Shown piece by piece: positions 6,774 to 56,327 of a stretch of DNA of 64,000 nucleotides. Source of the stretch: Escherichia phage vB_VIPECOMC06; the sequence record PQ416618.1; one strand, given 5' to 3'. Within the stretch, counting starts at the first letter, position 1, and each line of letters opens with the position of its first letter. The notes below the pieces were generated by a model. It ran no database searches, was not told where the DNA came from, and saw nothing but the letters and a program-made list of their open reading frames with translations. The position numbers and the translations under genes were made by a program.

Positions 6774-7136
6774 ATGAAAGCATATCAAATTCTTGAAGGC
6801 ACGCATAAAGGTACTATTTATTTTGAAGACGGTATTCAAGCACGAATTATTGTCTCTAAAACTTTTAAAGAAGACGCTATTGTAGACCCGGAAATTTTCT
6901 ACGGTTTGAATGCTCGTGAAATTGAAATTGAACATCAACCTAAAGTTAAAATTGAAGGTGGTCAACACCTGAACGTTAACGTTCTGCGTCGCGAAACTCT
7001 GGAAGATGCAGTTAAGCATCCAGAAAAATATCCACAGCTGACCATCCGTGTATCTGGTTATGCAGTTCGCTTTAACTCTCTGACTCCAGAACAGCAGCGC
7101 GACGTTATCGCTCGTACCTTTACTGAGAGTCTATAA
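6774..7136 (+). CDS. autonomous glycyl-radical cofactor (GrcA/YfiD-like)
   Basis: C-terminal glycyl radical motif [25 protein letters not shown]; ~120 aa as in GrcA and T4 Y06I. Confidence 0.8.
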
Positions 7137-7360
7137 TGGCTAAATTGATTATAGAAGGGTCTGAAGATGTTTTAAAATGTTTTGCCGCCTGGTTTAGTTG
7201 CTCAGGCGAGCAATCATTCATTGAAGCATTTAGAACGGGTGATATTACTGGAAAATATCCGTCAACCGATATCACTGTACGCGGATATGGTATTAATGAG
7301 CCTATCCAATTGGTCGAATATGACCTTGCCACCGATGAGGAAATTCCTTATGTCGATTGA
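7136..7360 (+). CDS. hypothetical protein (74 aa)
   Basis: Start overlaps upstream stop (TAATG). Confidence 0.4.
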   Translation: MAKLIIEGSEDVLKCFAAWFSCSGEQSFIEAFRTGDITGKYPSTDITVRGYGINEPIQLVEYDLATDEEIPYVD

Positions 7361-7616
7361 AGACATCAAAGGCTACAAGCCGCATACCGATGATAAAATC
7401 AGTAAAGTGAACGCTATTAAAGATGCAGAAGTCCGTCTTGGATTGATGTTTGATGCTCTGATTGAAGAAGCATATATCTTGAAAGAAAATGAATCAGAGC
7501 AACAAACCAAAGAAGATATGGATGCAGTGCAGGCTCTTAAGTATGCTAAGCAACATCTAAAAGAAGCCAGCATGTGGGCATGTCGTGCAGTATTTCGACC
7601 TGAGGAAAAATACTAA
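7350..7616 (+). CDS. hypothetical protein (~88 aa)
   Basis: In-frame ATG at 7350 overlapping the upstream stop; the longer track ORF from 7182 would overlap the upstream gene. Confidence 0.35.
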   Translation: MSIEDIKGYKPHTDDKISKVNAIKDAEVRLGLMFDALIEEAYILKENESEQQTKEDMDAVQALKYAKQHLKEASMWACRAVFRPEEKY

Positions 7617-7831
7617 TGGCTTCTACTATTACTGGGTTATTGGACTTTCAAGAAAAGGTCAACAAAATTTGTAGTGAATACTTAAAGTATCTTGAAGAAG
7701 ACCTTGAAGATTGTAAGGAAGAAGGCGAAGAAGACTATGCTGACCAGCGTCGTCGCCAAATCGAAGAGATGAGGCATTTCGCCGATATGGTATCTAAAGA
7801 ATCTTGGGCTTTAACTCCATTTTATCAATAA
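7616..7831 (+). CDS. hypothetical acidic protein (71 aa)
   Basis: TAATG coupling; highly acidic. Confidence 0.4.
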   Translation: MASTITGLLDFQEKVNKICSEYLKYLEEDLEDCKEEGEEDYADQRRRQIEEMRHFADMVSKESWALTPFYQ

Positions 7832-7835
7832 AGTA

Positions 7836-7886
7836 GTTTACTTCTCCTCTAGATGTGTTACTATAGACCTGTCAACTAGAGGAGAA
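7836..7886 (+). promoter_or_regulatory. early promoter cassette with SD-pairing inverted repeat (regB)
   Basis: GTTTAC, TGTTACTAT; TCTCCTCTAG (7843-7852) complementary to CTAGAGGAGA (7877-7886). Confidence 0.55.
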
Positions 7887-7892
7887 ATCAAA

Positions 7893-8351
7893 ATGACTAT
7901 CAATTCTGACGTTTTTATCCGCCGTAATAAACTCCGTCGAATCTTTGAAACGGAGTTCCGCAAAATAAATGCCGGTATAAAAGATGCTGCAAAGTCTCTT
8001 GGAATACCAGGCTTTCATATCAAGTATTCTCAACATCTCTTAGATCGTGCTATCCAGAGAGAAATAGATGAGAACTACGTTTTTGAATTATTTCGTAAAG
8101 TAAAAAATCATGTTAAAGAAGTTGCAGAATTTTTATCAATGCCGGCACGTCCAGATGTTGATGAAGATTTTGTCGAAGGTGTTGAATATCGCCCAGGCCG
8201 TTTAGAAATAACTGACGGAAATCTTTGGTTAGGACTTACAGTTTGTCGCGAAAATCCAGCATTCAAAATGAAGACTCTTCAATGCAGAATGGCTATTATT
8301 AACAGTAAACGACTACCAGGAAAAGCTTCTAAAGCAGTGATTAAAATCTAG
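7893..8351 (+). CDS. regB: RegB-like sequence-specific endoribonuclease
   Basis: MTINSDVFIRRNKLRR...HLLDRAIQREIDE...EYRPGRLEITDGNLWLG resembles T4 RegB as recalled; size ~152 aa; correct locus between denV and tk. Confidence 0.7.
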   Translation: MTINSDVFIRRNKLRRIFETEFRKINAGIKDAAKSLGIPGFHIKYSQHLLDRAIQREIDENYVFELFRKVKNHVKEVAEFLSMPARPDVDEDFVEGVEYRPGRLEITDGNLWLGLTVCRENPAFKMKTLQCRMAIINSKRLPGKASKAVIKI

Positions 8352-8359
8352 AGGTAAAC

Positions 8360-8902
8360 ATGAGAAAAGCACTACTCGCTGGTCTATTTGCTCTTTCATT
8401 ATCAGCACATAGCTCCGAGCATACTTTTAGTAATGTCCAACTCGATAACTTGAATTATGCTTATCAGTTTGGGGAACAGTTTTCTAAGGACGGAAAATTT
8501 AAAACGCATGAAAATATGCATAAGAAAGGACTTGGATACATAATGGCCGCAATACTATGGCAGGAATCATCTGCCGGTATTAATCTTAAAGATAAGAAAG
8601 GTCACCATGCGTATGGAATGTTCCAAAATTATCTACCAACAATGAGGGCAAGAATTAACCAGCTTGGTTATAATATGACTGATGCCCAAATTAAGAAAAT
8701 GCTATCTAAGCGGTCTAATTCAGCCAGATGGGCTTATATCGAATTTTCTTATTGGTTAAATATACATAACGGGGATATAAGAAAAGCTATATCCTCATAT
8801 AATGCGGGATGGAAGACGAGTGCTGGAAGTAAATATGCTTCTGAAGTCCTAGAAAAGGCTAATTACCTTAAATCAAACAAACTACTGGAAATAAAAGAAT
8901 GA
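8360..8902 (+). CDS. secreted protein, possible lytic transglycosylase-like
   Basis: Signal peptide MRKALLAGLFALSLSAHS; QESS...GxxQ motif region; family assignment tentative. Confidence 0.45.
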   Translation: MRKALLAGLFALSLSAHSSEHTFSNVQLDNLNYAYQFGEQFSKDGKFKTHENMHKKGLGYIMAAILWQESSAGINLKDKKGHHAYGMFQNYLPTMRARINQLGYNMTDAQIKKMLSKRSNSARWAYIEFSYWLNIHNGDIRKAISSYNAGWKTSAGSKYASEVLEKANYLKSNKLLEIKE

Positions 8903-9246
8903 CCAAAATGTTGGCTTTAATAGTTGGCTTGGTTTCATTTAACGCTCTTGCTAATACTACATATACTGATGTAACGGAGTATACAAACAGAACAGCGTCT
9001 GATTATTGTGGTAAAAGTCAAGAGTGTAAAGTAGATTTTTCACAAAAATTGTTATATGCGTATAAAGACGGAGAAAAAGATGGGGCGTCTAGTAGGTTCA
9101 AGGCGTCTACCTTAATTAAAAGATACTATAAAAAATGGCAAATATTAGAATGCTCGGTGGCGGAACCTAAAGATAAGGCAGCATGCAATTCTATGGTGGA
9201 CCGTCTAGTTGACTCTTATACTAGAGGACTTGCAGCAAGTGATTAA
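8899..9246 (+). CDS. secreted protein (115 aa)
   Basis: Signal peptide MTKMLALIVGLVSFNALA; Cys-containing mature part. Confidence 0.45.
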   Translation: MTKMLALIVGLVSFNALANTTYTDVTEYTNRTASDYCGKSQECKVDFSQKLLYAYKDGEKDGASSRFKASTLIKRYYKKWQILECSVAEPKDKAACNSMVDRLVDSYTRGLAASD

Positions 9247-9706
9247 AAACTATATCAAGGGCGATATTGTCGCCCTGTTTTCTAAAGGTAATAATATTGC
9301 TCATGGGTGTAATTGTTTTCATACAATGGGCGCTGGTGTGGCAGGACAATTAGCAAAGGCTTATCCAAAAATTCTAGAAGCCGATAAACTTCAAACCGAA
9401 TTCGGAGACGAGTCTAAACTCGGGACTTATTCGGTTTATGAAAAATATTTTAAGACCCATAAAGCTTATTGCTTTAATCTTTATACACAGTTTGAGCCTG
9501 GACCTAATTTTGAGTACTATGCTTTAATGAATTGTATAATAGAATTAAATGAATTCGGAAAGAATAAGATAACAAAGCCTGTAATTTATATGCCAAGAAT
9601 TGGTGCAGGTATCGGTGGCGGAAACTGGGATGTCATCGAAGAGATTTTAGATACGTATTCCACTAAACTAGAAATTGTGATTGTTGATTGGGAACCATTA
9701 TTATGA
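9209..9706 (+). CDS. macro-domain protein (ADP-ribose binding/processing)
   Basis: Macro-domain-like core NNIAHGCNCFHTMGAGVAGQLAKAYP and C-terminal GAGIGGGNW; start uncertain (overlaps upstream ORF by 38 nt). Confidence 0.55.
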   Translation: MTLILEDLQQVIKNYIKGDIVALFSKGNNIAHGCNCFHTMGAGVAGQLAKAYPKILEADKLQTEFGDESKLGTYSVYEKYFKTHKAYCFNLYTQFEPGPNFEYYALMNCIIELNEFGKNKITKPVIYMPRIGAGIGGGNWDVIEEILDTYSTKLEIVIVDWEPLL

Positions 9707-9915
9707 ATATACATTATCCACATCCATATGACCCAAAGAATAAGGCAGTAATTATTCGTCAATGGGAACGCATTTGTCGTACCAAATGTCCAATTAATAG
9801 TCCACACGATGTAGATAAAGACTACATCGGAACATTCGTTGAATATACCTTTATTGATAAGAAAGGCCGTAAACAACATGTAGAAGAATACTGCTTAAAG
9901 GTGACATGGCTATGA
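9703..9915 (+). CDS. hypothetical protein (~70 aa)
   Basis: ATGA overlap with macro-domain gene stop. Confidence 0.4.
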   Translation: MNIHYPHPYDPKNKAVIIRQWERICRTKCPINSPHDVDKDYIGTFVEYTFIDKKGRKQHVEEYCLKVTWL

Positions 9916-10097
9916 GTTTAAGCAAAGAACAAAAAGACAAACTCTTTTCTCTTATCCATGAAGTTATGGATAAAAATAGTGAATTGGAAAAAGTTTGTAA
10001 TGAATGCGGTCCTTTTAGTGCAAACGAGTACGAAGAACTTTCTAAAGAATTCGATAATAAAGAGCAAGAACTCATTGATTATATAAATTCCTTATGA
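9906..10097 (+). CDS. hypothetical protein (~61-63 aa)
   Basis: Overlapping start region with upstream stop (ATG at 9906 or 9912). Confidence 0.4.
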   Translation: MAMSLSKEQKDKLFSLIHEVMDKNSELEKVCNECGPFSANEYEELSKEFDNKEQELIDYINSL

Positions 10098-10291
10098 TTA
10101 CTCGCAAACAAAAGAACGAAATATTATTTTTAGTTAGTGAAATTGTTAGTTTAGAAAAGGATTTGTCTTTTGAAATATCTTCTGAATACGGAGATGCCGA
10201 AACATATTACGAATTAGTAAAATCTATCGATAAAGCTGAAAATGATTTAGAAACATATTTAGAAAATTTAACTAAGGACTCTTATGGCTAG
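10094..10291 (+). CDS. hypothetical acidic protein (65 aa)
   Basis: ATGA coupling. Confidence 0.4.
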   Translation: MITRKQKNEILFLVSEIVSLEKDLSFEISSEYGDAETYYELVKSIDKAENDLETYLENLTKDSYG

Positions 10292-10865
10292 TTTAATTTT
10301 TACATATGCCGCTATGAACGCTGGTAAATCTGCTTCATTACTTACTGCCGCACATAACTATAAAGAACGTGGCATGGGTGTATTAGTTCTTAAACCGGCT
10401 ATTGATACTCGCGATTCAAAAGGTGAAATAGTCTCTCGTATTGGTATTCGTCAGGACGCCAATATAATTACAAAAGACATGGATATCTTTGAATTCTATA
10501 AATGGGCTGCAGCACAAAAGGATATTCATTGTGTATTTGTTGACGAAGCTCAGTTTTTAACTACTGAAAAGGTGTATCAACTTAGTCGTATTGTTGACGT
10601 ATACAATGTGCCGGTAATGGCATATGGACTACGAACAGATTTTAAAGGTAATTTATTTGAAGGTTCTCAAGCATTAATGGCTATTGCCGATAAACTTGTT
10701 GAACTTAAAGGTGTCTGTCATTGCGGTAAAAAGGCCACAATGGTAGCTAGAGTCACGGAAGATGGACTTCCAATTACAGACGGCAGTCAAATTGAAATTG
10801 GTGATACTGATAGATATGTGTCATTATGCCGGAAGCATTGGAATGATTTGACAGGGTTGTTATAA
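10284..10865 (+). CDS. tk: thymidine kinase
   Basis: P-loop AAMNAGKSASLL, FVDEAQF, C-terminal Zn-binding CHCGKKAT...LCRKH; 193 aa as in T4 Tk. Confidence 0.9.
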   Translation: MASLIFTYAAMNAGKSASLLTAAHNYKERGMGVLVLKPAIDTRDSKGEIVSRIGIRQDANIITKDMDIFEFYKWAAAQKDIHCVFVDEAQFLTTEKVYQLSRIVDVYNVPVMAYGLRTDFKGNLFEGSQALMAIADKLVELKGVCHCGKKATMVARVTEDGLPITDGSQIEIGDTDRYVSLCRKHWNDLTGLL

Positions 10866-10892
10866 ATACTAATATCTAACCAAGAGGTATAT

Positions 10893-11105
10893 ATGCAGCA
10901 ATTAAACGAAAGACAACTTCGTAATCTTACTGTAACCCAATTGGATGAAATCCGAAGAGAATTAGGACATTCTATTTCTCATTTAAACGAGGATATCCGT
11001 CAAACTGGTTCTAAAGCTGATTATACACGCAAGCGCAAGCTGGAAAAATACCTCACAGATGTTAAGGCCGTCCAAAGGCGAAAAATAAATACTGGCCAAA
11101 ATTAA
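10893..11105 (+). CDS. hypothetical protein (70 aa)
   Basis: SD AAGAGG before ATG. Confidence 0.4.
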
Positions 11106-11117
11106 CAGGAGGCCTAT

Positions 11118-11420
11118 ATGGCCTTAAGAGCGATAGCTGTCATGGCGATGCTGGGGTTTTTTGCAGCAACAACTCCTATCGTTGGTACTGCGTACACTGA
11201 CCCATATTTTGATAACTTTATGGAATCAGGGATTAAAAACGTATATACTTTGTTTGAAATTCAAAATGTCGAGAATTCTGAAAAATTCTATAAGTATATG
11301 GCAAAGCATTACAAAAATAGCCCCTGTGATGATGCATTTGAATGTCATGAACAAGGCATAAAAACTGCTAGACAATTTGCCGAGTTCATGAAAATAAAAT
11401 TAGAGCCTACATCTATCTAA
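11118..11420 (+). CDS. hypothetical protein with N-terminal hydrophobic segment (100 aa)
   Basis: SD AGGAGG; N-terminus MALRAIAVMAMLGFFAATTPIVGTA is signal-peptide-like. Confidence 0.4.
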   Translation: MALRAIAVMAMLGFFAATTPIVGTAYTDPYFDNFMESGIKNVYTLFEIQNVENSEKFYKYMAKHYKNSPCDDAFECHEQGIKTARQFAEFMKIKLEPTSI

Positions 11421-11426
11421 TTTACT

Positions 11427-11454
11427 AGCCCCTTCCTTACGGTTGGGGCTTTTT
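11427..11454 (+). terminator. putative rho-independent terminator
   Basis: AGCCCC...GGGGCT stem followed by TTTT. Confidence 0.5.
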
Positions 11455-11465
11455 GGCATTTAGCA

Positions 11466-11494
11466 GTTTACTTTTCCTCAGGTTGTGTTATAGT
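11466..11494 (+). promoter_or_regulatory. early promoter
   Basis: GTTTAC, 17-bp spacer, TGTTATAGT. Confidence 0.55.
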
Positions 11495-11521
11495 AGACCT
11501 TACTTACTAGAGGAGAACGTT

Positions 11522-50514: not shown

Positions 50515-51165
50515 ATGATTTATTATATGCACAAAAATGCGCCATTTAAATATGGTAAATTTCCTAATGCACAATGTTATAATATAACGCCGAACGAAAA
50601 TAATAACGGATATCATATTGGTGTAATTTTTGTAATTGTTAAAGATAACGAAATCGTTGCCTGGGCAGATTTTAAAGGTACAACGTATGATGTTAATCCA
50701 GTGCCTTTCACATATTACAATATAATGGATTTGGCATATGATTATAATTGGTTTAATCACGACGCGTTGGCTCATATTGAAGGTGTAGGATTTGACATCT
50801 CTTATTCTAGCTATTCATTATGTCCTATGAGCCGAGCTCACGGTAAAGATGCATCATATCTTTCATTTCGGAAACGTGTAAACTTCAAACGTAGTACAGA
50901 GTATGTCGGTGGACTCTTTGTTAAAGATAATAAAATAACCCGTATTAGTTATCCTTTAAGTGTAGGTCAAAAAGATGTTGATGTTGATTTAGACTTAACC
51001 GAAAATAACATTAATCATATTGCTTCTGTATATTTTGATATCGATGAAAAAATTGTAGTGTGTGGATACGAATTACCACCTGAAGAAAAGGCCGAAACAA
51101 TTGAAGTCGAATTAGAAATTTCTGTTGATGACCAAATATTTAATGCATTTATGAATCGAGGTTAA
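50515..51165 (+). CDS. hypothetical protein (~216 aa)
   Basis: ATG at 50515 (track start is a GTG overlapping the upstream stop). Confidence 0.45.
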   Translation: MIYYMHKNAPFKYGKFPNAQCYNITPNENNNGYHIGVIFVIVKDNEIVAWADFKGTTYDVNPVPFTYYNIMDLAYDYNWFNHDALAHIEGVGFDISYSSYSLCPMSRAHGKDASYLSFRKRVNFKRSTEYVGGLFVKDNKITRISYPLSVGQKDVDVDLDLTENNINHIASVYFDIDEKIVVCGYELPPEEKAETIEVELEISVDDQIFNAFMNRG

Positions 51166-55718: not shown

Positions 55719-56327
55719 ATGTTTATGCCGTATAATGAATGTGAAATTGAAGAAATGGTTCGTCGTGCTCAATGCCCGGACTATCAGGATGAACTTCAGT
55801 ACAAAATAGATGAGCAATTCAGTGACATTGAACAAAGTGTACTGTGGCAATGTATGGAAAACAAGCCAGACAGCATCCAACAAGATTTAAGTGCAATTGT
55901 TCGTAGAAATTGGTCTTCTTCTGTTCCTGAGACAATGTATCGTGGAATCTCTAAGAAAACTATGGCCACACTCGATGATAAAGGCATTGGTAGTATTATT
56001 AAATTTGACAGAGTAATGAGCTTCAGCCCAGTGTTCAGTGTAGCACGTAACTTCGCTTCATATAATTTTTATGGAACATTTAATATGTTCTGCATCAAAG
56101 ATGCACCATTTGCTTTCAACTTCCGTGAACATATGCTTAACATGATTCTGGCTGCACCATCTTGCGAGTTCAATGGAGCTTTCCCTGAAGCTACAAGACG
56201 GTCTAATGCTAGACTTATATCTGACGAATGTGAATTTATGCTCCCTATAGGGACTACACTGCGTGTAGATTCTATTATTCAAGATGGACGTTATACAATC
56301 TGGAATCTGTCTATTGTAGGTTACTGA
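55719..56327 (+). CDS. ADP-ribosyltransferase (T4 ModA/ModB-like)
   Basis: ART triad-like elements: Arg in YRGIS, S-x-S in FSPVFSV, ExE in SDECEFM; ~200 aa; locus between soc and dda as T4 mod genes. Confidence 0.55.
   Translation: MFMPYNECEIEEMVRRAQCPDYQDELQYKIDEQFSDIEQSVLWQCMENKPDSIQQDLSAIVRRNWSSSVPETMYRGISKKTMATLDDKGIGSIIKFDRVMSFSPVFSVARNFASYNFYGTFNMFCIKDAPFAFNFREHMLNMILAAPSCEFNGAFPEATRRSNARLISDECEFMLPIGTTLRVDSIIQDGRYTIWNLSIVGY

What the first reader, a model, noticed from the sequence alone, without database searches (positions are those of the whole stretch)
9209..9706. Macro-domain protein in the tk-proximal accessory region
The macro-domain-like core suggests ADP-ribose binding or hydrolysis. 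In a phage that also encodes a Mod-type ADP-ribosyltransferase (55719..56327), it could reverse ADP-ribosylation or counter host ADP-ribose-based immunity such as DarT- or NAD-derived signalling. The start codon is unclear (38-nt overlap with the upstream gene).
Basis: inference. Interest (0 to 1): 0.6.

Follow-up and report, generated by a model that had tools for sequence, protein, structure and literature searches.

The report
T4 tk.4/AdfM anti-DarT2 macrodomain orthologue

Summary
The ORF is real, but it most likely starts at GTG 9239, not TTG 9209. That gives 155 aa and an 8-nt overlap with vs. The window is a Mosigvirus with the T4 gene order regB–vs.1–vs–tk.4–tk.3–tk.2–tk.1–tk. The protein is 84% identical to T4 Tk.4, end to end and without gaps, and is under strong purifying selection (dN/dS 0.07).

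A 2025 preprint renamed T4 tk.4 as adfM: deleting it makes T4 sensitive to DarTG2. The best explanation is therefore removal of DarT2-installed ADP-ribose from thymidines in phage DNA. No enzymatic activity has been shown for this family.

One nuance: the DarG/TARG1 catalytic lysine is replaced by an invariant glutamine (Q84), as in Streptomyces SCO6735. However, the loop that is five residues longer in SCO6735 is short here.

The suggested link to the phage's Mod ADP-ribosyltransferase has no support.

Seen in passing: a conserved GC-rich hairpin 20 nt inside the ORF, and an "active-allele" AdfA elsewhere in the window.

Verdict: already known, low interest.

The parts
9239..9706 (+). tk.4 / adfM orthologue CDS: 155 aa, GTG start, TGA stop; a single macro domain
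9209..9238 (+).
   Evidence: No homologue carries it: T4 and close homologues are 155 aa, and annotated starts match 9239.
9225..9229 (+). GAGGA Shine-Dalgarno, 9 nt upstream of GTG 9239
   Evidence: Read from the sequence. T4 has GAGGA at a similar distance before its ATG.
9311..9313 (+). Codon for Asn25, equivalent to DarG N22 and PhiKZ AdfM N23 (ADP-ribose site)
   Evidence: Alignment mapping. Invariant in 77 family members. Mutating N22 (DarG) or N23 (PhiKZ) lowers activity.
9488..9490 (+). Codon for Gln84, at the position of the catalytic Lys of TARG1 (K84) and DarG (K80) and of the essential Gln85 of SCO6735
   Evidence: MAFFT alignment with TARG1, DarG and PhiKZ gp104. hhalign with SCO6735/Bt_1257. 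Invariant in 77/77. SCO6735 Q85A is inactive (PMC9411070).
9593..9628 (+). PRIGAGIGGGNW, the glycine-rich diphosphate/distal-ribose loop (residues 119-130)
   Evidence: Aligns with DarG G117-G121 and TARG1 G121-D125. P119, I121, G122 and G124 are invariant. TARG1 D125 corresponds to G126 here.
9258..9276 (+). 8-bp GC-rich hairpin AGGGCGAT-ATT-GTCGCCCT inside codons 7-13, followed by GTTTTCT; function unknown
   Evidence: Terminator-like hit. MFE -13.0 kcal/mol against a mean of -4.6 for synonymous-codon shuffles, 0 of 300 as low. Kept in T4, slur02, ECD7 and others, with double-sided changes in 2 pairs.
8899..9246 (+). vs (valyl-tRNA synthetase modifier), the upstream gene; overlaps the tk.4 start by 8 nt
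   Evidence: PHROG 1256, E 5e-35. Same order in T4.
9703..9915 (+). tk.3 (DUF7202), the downstream gene; its ATG overlaps the tk.4 stop (ATGA)
   Evidence: Pfam DUF7202, E 2e-38. T4 junction identical. Annotated at this start in moskry and HX01.

Best explanation
The gene at 9239..9706 is the Mosigvirus orthologue of T4 tk.4, recently renamed adfM ('anti-DarT factor macrodomain'). It encodes a stand-alone 155-aa macrodomain of the ALC1-like class (TARG1/DarG/SCO6735/Poa1p).

Proposed mechanism: during infection the host toxin DarT2 ADP-ribosylates thymidines in single-stranded phage DNA, which blocks replication. The phage macrodomain binds the ADP-ribose moiety and hydrolyses the thymidine-ribose bond, so replication continues. 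It would act as an orphan antitoxin.

Catalysis is predicted to use the invariant Gln84 (with Asn25 and the glycine-rich loop), as in SCO6735, and not the lysine of DarG and TARG1.

Shown here: orthology, synteny, fold, active-site composition and purifying selection. Shown in the literature for T4: tk.4 is required for growth on DarTG2 hosts. Inferred: that this allele behaves the same, and that the mechanism is enzymatic removal of ADP-ribose from DNA.
For: - Synteny regB-vs.1-vs-tk.4-tk.3-tk.2-tk.1-tk is identical to T4.
- 84% identity over all 155 residues, no gaps. dN/dS 0.069 with dS 1.31.
- Pfam Macro is above threshold. The only NCBIfam hit is the macro part of DarG.
- ADP-ribose-contacting positions of DarG are conserved or conservatively replaced: D9, I10, N25, V34, Q37, T83, G122, G124.
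- Gln84 is invariant in 77 homologues and aligns with SCO6735 Gln85. That residue is essential in an enzyme that cleaves thymidine-linked ADP-ribosyl-DNA and rescues DarT toxicity (PMC9411070).
- A T4 tk.4 knockout becomes sensitive to DarTG2; tk.4 was the single significant hit in a transposon screen (10.1101/2025.11.20.689424).
- A different phage macrodomain, PhiKZ gp104, removes DarT2 ADP-ribose from DNA in vitro (PMC13309987).
Against: - No enzymatic assay exists for T4 Tk.4 or this allele. The preprint only says enzymatic removal 'seems likely'.
- The DarG/TARG1 catalytic lysine is absent, so DarG chemistry cannot simply be transferred.
- The Gln analogy rests on SCO6735, which is only about 22-24% identical and has a loop five residues longer.
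- The genetic evidence is from one DarTG2 system, one phage and a preprint.
- The allele differs from T4's at 25 of 155 positions, including G127 where T4 has K127 in the glycine-rich loop.
- The closest solved relatives include Poa1p, a phosphatase.
Confidence: 0.75

Rival explanations
1. It neutralises DarT2 mainly by binding the toxin (stoichiometric inhibition), as AdfA and AdfB do, and hydrolysis is dispensable. This could also act alongside hydrolysis.
For: Catalytically dead SCO6735 Q85A still inhibits DarT in vitro, more strongly than DarG K80A or TARG1 K84A (PMC9411070). ICP1 AdfB and T-even AdfA act by binding DarT. No enzymology exists for Tk.4.
Against: The protein lacks the C-terminal DarT-binding domain of DarG: it is 155 aa and a single domain. 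TaqDarG-macro K80A alone did not inhibit DarT (PMC5179494). The invariant residues are all ADP-ribose-pocket residues (N25, Q84, G122, G124), which fits catalysis and ligand binding, not a toxin-specific surface.
Confidence: 0.1
2. It is a Poa1p-like ADP-ribose-1''-phosphate phosphatase or O-acetyl-ADP-ribose deacetylase that processes small ADP-ribose metabolites. This is the 'phosphatase' / 'A1pp motif' annotation carried by RefSeq.
Against: These names are transferred annotations, not tests. The only phenotype known for T4 tk.4 is DarTG2 sensitivity. I know of no source of ADP-ribose-1''-phosphate in T4-type infection (inference). From the alignment read with a one-residue shift (my reading; the printed ungapped alignment also gives Ser), Poa1p has Ser where this family has its invariant Gln.
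Confidence: 0.07
3. It removes ADP-ribose from proteins or RNA. Examples would be tuning or reversing the phage's own Alt/Mod modifications, or countering host protein- or RNA-directed ADP-ribosyltransferase defences.
For: The window encodes a ModB-like ADP-ribosyltransferase. TARG1 and SCO6735 also act on protein-linked ADP-ribose. The Johannesman paper notes that other ADP-ribosylating defences may be countered by such enzymes.
Against: The TARG1 Lys84/Asp125 dyad used for Glu/Asp-linked protein ADP-ribose is absent: Q84 and G126 here. T4 Alt/ModA/ModB modify arginine, which macrodomains of this class are not known to cleave (established knowledge, not tested here). The macro gene and mod lie 46 kb apart with no co-localisation. 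No phenotype points this way.
Confidence: 0.05
4. It binds or degrades ADP-ribose-derived immune signals (e.g. Thoeris gcADPR), acting as a sponge or hydrolase.
Against: Similarity to ThsA Macro is far below that to the DarG/TARG1/SCO6735 class. No literature or genetic evidence supports it. The known anti-Thoeris proteins are unrelated folds (own knowledge).
Confidence: 0.03

Closest known systems
Phage T4 Tk.4 = AdfM (NP_049723; 10.1101/2025.11.20.689424)
   Same: Same genomic slot between vs and tk.3. Same length (155 aa). 84% identity without gaps. Same SD/start and the same ATGA junction with tk.3. Same invariant N25, Q84 and glycine loop. Same 5' hairpin.
   Different: GTG instead of ATG start. 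25 substitutions, e.g. G127 here against K127 in T4. The host phage is a Mosigvirus, not a Tequatrovirus. The anti-DarTG2 phenotype has been shown only for the T4 allele.
SCO6735 (Streptomyces coelicolor) and Bt_1257, the Gln-type ALC1-like macrodomains (PMC9411070; PDB 5E3B, 2FG1)
   Different: Only 22-29% identical. The phage protein lacks the five extra residues of the 'mobile loop' that defines that subclass. SCO6735 is a cellular DNA-damage-inducible protein, not a viral counter-defence.
DarG (DarG2) antitoxin macrodomain (PDB 5M3I, 5M31, 7OMU)
   Different: Catalytic K80 is replaced by Q84. W83, proposed to stack on thymine, is replaced by P87. There is no C-terminal DarT-binding domain and no adjacent darT. 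Score is 30 bits against an equivalog cut-off of 250.
PhiKZ gp104 'AdfM' of chimalliviruses (PMC13309987)
   Same: Phage-encoded stand-alone macrodomain given the same name. It removes DarT2 ADP-ribose from DNA and rescues DarT2 toxicity. The Asn is conserved.
   Different: Only 19% identical. It is of the DarG type, with the FPTKDNW lysine motif, and is imported into the phage nucleus. It is likely an independent acquisition.
AdfN (T4 gp30.3, NADAR) and AdfA (gp61.2)
   Same: Other anti-DarT factors of T-even phages. AdfN is likewise an orphan antitoxin-like ADP-ribosylglycohydrolase. An AdfA homologue lies in this window at 50515..51162.
   Different: Unrelated folds. They counter DarTG1 (guanosine-linked), not DarTG2 (thymidine-linked). 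AdfN proteins do not rescue phage T5 from DarTG2.
Human TARG1/OARD1 and yeast Poa1p
   Different: The TARG1 K84/D125 dyad is absent. Poa1p is an ADP-ribose-1''-phosphate phosphatase. Both are eukaryotic housekeeping enzymes.

Membership tests
Macro domain (Pfam PF01661) | Score above the Pfam gathering threshold | tested here: met
   27.4 bits against a cut-off of 22, E 3.4e-6, profile positions 2-117 of 118.
Macro domain (Pfam PF01661) | Macro fold: central mixed beta-sheet flanked by helices | tested here: met
ALC1-like macrodomain class (TARG1/DarG/SCO6735/Poa1p) | Closest structural and sequence relatives belong to this class | tested here: met
T4 Tk.4 / AdfM orthologous group | Full-length high identity to T4 Tk.4 | tested here: met
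   130/155 identical, 0 gaps, E 8e-104.
T4 Tk.4 / AdfM orthologous group | Conserved position between vs and tk.3, upstream of tk | tested here: met
   Window order matches T4 NC_000866 at 60.9-61.7 kb. Junction sequences are conserved.
T4 Tk.4 / AdfM orthologous group | Required for phage growth on DarTG2-expressing hosts | not testable with these tools
   Shown only for T4. Needs a deletion mutant and plaque assays.
DarG antitoxin (NCBIfam NF048014, equivalog) | Score above the equivalog cut-off | tested here: not met
   30.4 bits against a cut-off of 250. Only profile positions 4-146 of 338 are matched.
DarG antitoxin (NCBIfam NF048014, equivalog) | C-terminal DarT-binding domain and an adjacent darT gene | tested here: not met
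   The protein is 155 aa with one domain. Its neighbours are vs and tk.3.
DarG antitoxin (NCBIfam NF048014, equivalog) | Catalytic lysine (K80) | tested here: not met
   Gln84 aligns with K80 of Mtb and Taq DarG. DarG sequences were verified against PDB chains.
SCO6735/Bt_1257 subclass | Essential Gln in place of the catalytic Lys | tested here: met
   hhalign (probability 98.9%) aligns NLYTQ with NMIGQ, i.e. Q84 with SCO6735 Gln85. Q84 is invariant in 77/77.
SCO6735/Bt_1257 subclass | 'Mobile loop' five residues longer than in DarG/TARG1 | tested here: not met
   hhalign places a 5-residue gap in the phage family opposite SCO6735 HGMKTGSKG. Loop length equals that of TARG1 and DarG.
TARG1 | Lys84/Asp125 catalytic dyad | tested here: not met
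   Q84 and G126 occupy those positions. The TARG1 sequence was verified against 2LGR.
Poa1p-type ADP-ribose-1''-phosphate phosphatase | Phosphatase activity on ADP-ribose-1''-phosphate | not testable with these tools
PhiKZ-type AdfM (gp104) | DarG-like active site with the Lys in FPTKDNW; conserved Asn | tested here: inconclusive
   The Asn is conserved (N25 vs N23) but the Lys is replaced by Gln. Identity is 19%. Same name and proposed function, different subfamily.

The most novel reading that the evidence does not exclude
The Tk.4/AdfM family may be a distinct, phage-specific subclass of ALC1-like macrodomains. It combines the SCO6735-type catalytic glutamine with the short loop of DarG/TARG1. 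It might therefore use a water-activating, lysine-independent mechanism and have a substrate range beyond DarT2-modified thymidine, such as other base- or RNA-linked ADP-ribose. Its expression might be controlled by a conserved 8-bp hairpin placed 20 nt inside the ORF, acting as an attenuator or mRNA-stability element.
Probability: 0.2. Interest if true: 0.4.

Novelty: already known. Interest (0 to 1): 0.15.

Why it matters
The practical value is correct annotation. This gene, and more than 150 near-identical copies in GenBank Mosigvirus genomes, are labelled 'hypothetical protein' or 'phosphatase'. They can now be called adfM/tk.4-type anti-DarT2 macrodomains.

The window also carries an AdfA with the active-type histidine. 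Together these predict that the phage is equipped against both DarTG subtypes, which is relevant when choosing therapeutic phages for DarTG-carrying E. coli.

The catalytic Gln-for-Lys difference is a small but testable mechanistic point that the T4 preprint does not raise. Otherwise nothing here changes current understanding.

Tried and rejected
- The phmmer alignment to Bt_1257 and the MAFFT alignment both misplace the SCO6735/Bt_1257 Gln because of their longer loop. I resolved this with a profile-profile alignment and the equivalence stated in PMC9411070.
- Pfam does not recognise the Mod-type transferase. PHROGs and tblastn with T4 ModA/ModB do.
- LeRoux et al. 2022 (PMC9250638) is not held in the library. 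Statements about DarTG2 and T-even phages therefore rest.
- The promoter scan of 6800..11500 gave no more sigma-70-like sites than shuffles (15 against 16.5 expected). No promoter is claimed; overlapping start and stop codons suggest co-transcription and translational coupling with vs and tk.3 (inference).
- The TTG 9209 start was rejected (see the observation check).
- Minus-strand ORFs overlapping the gene (9221..9349, 9504..9596, 9586..9879) have no support and were not pursued.
- A search for further literature on Tk.4 enzymology found none.
- I did not run the large representative-protein search, a bacterial genome scan or a metagenome scan. Orthology to a characterised T4 gene made them unnecessary.

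Full report
**What is in the sequence**

The window is a T4-like phage of the genus Mosigvirus. The 2.6 kb around the finding is 98-98.7% identical to phages AV112, HX01 and moskry.

The start is almost certainly GTG 9239.
- Both annotated relatives begin the CDS at the equivalent of 9239, giving 468 nt.
- T4 tk.4 is also 468 nt / 155 aa and aligns from residue 1 to 155 without a gap.
- Close metagenomic homologues are 155 aa.
- A GAGGA Shine-Dalgarno lies 9 nt upstream of the GTG. T4 has GAGGA at a similar distance before its ATG.

The overlap with the upstream gene is therefore 8 nt, not 38. The stop overlaps the start of the next gene (ATGA), exactly as in T4.

**Identity of the gene**

The local gene order is:
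- regB 7893..8351
- vs.1 8360..8902
- vs 8899..9246
- the macro gene 9239..9706
- tk.3 9703..9915
- tk.2 and tk.1
- tk 10284..10865
- rI.1 and rI

This is the T4 order regB–vs.1–vs–tk.4–tk.3–tk.2–tk.1–tk–rI.1–rI.

The protein is 84% identical to T4 Tk.4 (130/155, no gaps, E 8e-104). Nucleotide identity is 80.6%. Synonymous sites are nearly saturated (dS 1.31) and dN/dS is 0.069, so the protein is under strong purifying selection.

Relatives are found in 2,841 of 50,697 phage records. These include the T4-like Straboviridae hits listed there, and phages of Salmonella, Klebsiella, Pseudomonas, Vibrio and Acinetobacter. GenBank labels range over 'hypothetical protein', 'phosphatase' and 'macro domain protein'.

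**Fold and family**

- Pfam Macro is above threshold: 27.4 bits against 22.
- The only NCBIfam hit is the macro part of the DarG antitoxin model, far below its cut-off: 30 bits against 250.
- PHROG 335 'phosphatase' matches at E 2e-66.
- Against PDB sequences, the best matches are Bt_1257 (E 1.6e-10), yeast Poa1p, SCO6735, DarG and TARG1.
- An AlphaFold2 model built on 77 homologues has pLDDT 95.8 and pTM 0.91.

**Active site**

I verified the TARG1 and DarG sequences against PDB chains. SCO6735 and Bt_1257 came from PDB alignments, and PhiKZ gp104 from its paper.

Most residues that contact ADP-ribose in DarG have conserved or conservative equivalents here: D9, I10, N25, V34, Q37, T83, G122 and G124.

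The catalytic lysine of TARG1 (K84) and DarG (K80) is replaced by Gln84. TARG1 Asp125 is replaced by Gly126.

Gln84 sits in an N-L-Y-T-Q motif in which N80, Y82 and Q84 are invariant across 77 homologues. N25, G33, A35, D49, G62, P119, I121, G122 and G124 are also invariant.

Profile-profile alignment places Gln84 on Gln85 of SCO6735 (NMIGQ), with a five-residue gap opposite the longer 'mobile loop' of SCO6735. According to PMC9411070:
- SCO6735 lacks the DarG/TARG1 catalytic residues.
- It needs Gln85: the Q85A mutant is dead.
- It cleaves thymidine-linked ADP-ribosyl-DNA faster than DarG or TARG1.
- It rescues DarT toxicity.

The phage family therefore has the SCO6735-type glutamine on a DarG/TARG1-length loop. 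This is a mixed signature that I did not find described.

**What is known about the orthologue**

RefSeq has long annotated T4 Tk.4 as 'phosphatase; contains A1pp phosphatase motif'.

A November 2025 preprint (HIDEN-SEQ, 10.1101/2025.11.20.689424) reports the following:
- tk.4 was the single significant hit when a T4 transposon library was grown on a DarTG2 host.
- A clean knockout sensitised T4 to DarTG2.
- The authors noted structural similarity to the M. tuberculosis DarG macrodomain and renamed the gene adfM.
- They state that enzymatic removal of ADP-ribose from DNA 'seems likely'. No assay was reported.

Independently, PhiKZ gp104, also named AdfM, removes DarT2-installed ADP-ribose from DNA in vitro and rescues DarT2 toxicity (PMC13309987). 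That protein is only 19% identical and carries the DarG-type lysine.

T-even phages counter the other subtype, DarTG1 (guanosine-linked), with the NADAR enzyme AdfN and with AdfA. The three phage AdfN proteins tested did not rescue phage T5 from DarTG2, which was taken to mean that they cannot reverse thymidine-linked modification (PMC11825919).

**Most likely mechanism**

The protein is the phage's orphan antitoxin against DarT2. It binds ADP-ribose attached to thymidine in single-stranded phage DNA and hydrolyses the bond, so replication can proceed.
- Orthology, fold, pocket conservation and selection are shown here.
- The DarTG2 phenotype is shown for T4 only.
- Enzymatic action and the catalytic role of Gln84 are inferred from SCO6735.

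My confidence is about 0.75.

**Rival explanations**

- Toxin binding without catalysis. SCO6735 Q85A still inhibits DarT, but this protein has no DarT-binding domain.
- Poa1p-like phosphatase or deacetylase activity. This rests on similarity and transferred names only.
The TARG1 dyad is absent, and Alt/Mod target arginine (established knowledge).
- Binding of Thoeris-type signals. No evidence.

The interpretation, which hedged over several options, includes the correct one (DarT). The link to the Mod transferase is unsupported, although that gene is real.

**Novelty**

The gene is already known. It has been a recognised macro/A1pp gene of T4 for a long time and has a published (preprint) counter-defence role. 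Near-identical copies exist in many sequenced phages. Interest is low. The only additions are the Gln-type active site with a short loop, and the hairpin described below.

**Seen in passing**

- A GC-rich 8-bp hairpin lies at 9258..9276, inside codons 7-13 (K-G-D-I-V-A-L). It uses the codons GGC, GTC and GCC.
  - It is identical in T4 and in the 58%-identity slur02 allele.
  - It is retained with changed pairs in ECD7, L017/L021 (AAG…CTN becomes AAA…TTR) and the distant L055.
  - It is more stable than almost all synonymous-codon shuffles: window −13.0 kcal/mol against a shuffle mean of −4.6, 0 of 300 as low; other carriers scored p ≤ 0.01.
  - All 104 cells pair across 13 sequences, with double-sided changes in 2 pairs.
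  - That set was chosen because it shows the hairpin. Homologues without the V-A dipeptide lack it. This is suggestive only.
- The window's AdfA homologue (50515..51162) is 207/212 identical to RB69 AdfA but has His at the position of RB69 R164. That is the allele reported to neutralise DarT1.

Noticed in passing
window 9258..9276 (+), with the T-rich tract to 9285: An 8-bp GC-rich hairpin (AGGGCGAT-ATT-GTCGCCCT) lies 20 nt inside the tk.4 ORF. It is identical in T4 and slur02. ECD7, L017/L021 and L055 keep it with one- or two-sided changes. It is more stable than synonymous-codon shuffles (p <= 0.01). It is absent where the peptide lacks Val-Ala. It could be an attenuator, a terminator or an mRNA-stability element; its function is unknown. 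The sequence set was picked post hoc.
   Followed up: partly
window 50515..51162 (+): A homologue of AdfA (gp61.2), 207/212 identical to RB69 AdfA, carries His (ENNINHIASVY) at the position of RB69 Arg164. This is the allele reported to neutralise DarT1. The phage probably carries counter-measures to both DarTG subtypes.
   Followed up: partly
window 55719..56327 (+): Only one Mod-type ADP-ribosyltransferase ORF was found. It is closer to T4 ModB (E 4.6e-31) than to ModA (E 2e-18), whereas T4 has the modA-modB pair. Pfam misses it and PHROG 832 finds it.
   Followed up: partly
window 9906..10097 and 10094..10291 (+): tk.2 and tk.1 are tandem paralogues: both match PHROG 653. They are small acidic proteins of unknown function lying between the macro gene and tk.
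   Followed up: no
L003 (T4) vs L006 (slur02); one search hits: Two divergent tk.4 allele types exist within the genus Tequatrovirus. The T4 type is 84% identical to this Mosigvirus protein; the slur02/RB7 type is only 58%. This points to exchange of this gene between genera.
   Followed up: no
window 8360..8902 (+): vs.1 encodes a signal-peptide protein with a sub-threshold SLT lytic-transglycosylase match (18.8 bits against 21.3). GenBank records mislabel it as an endoribonuclease in some relatives (e.g. moskry).
   Followed up: no
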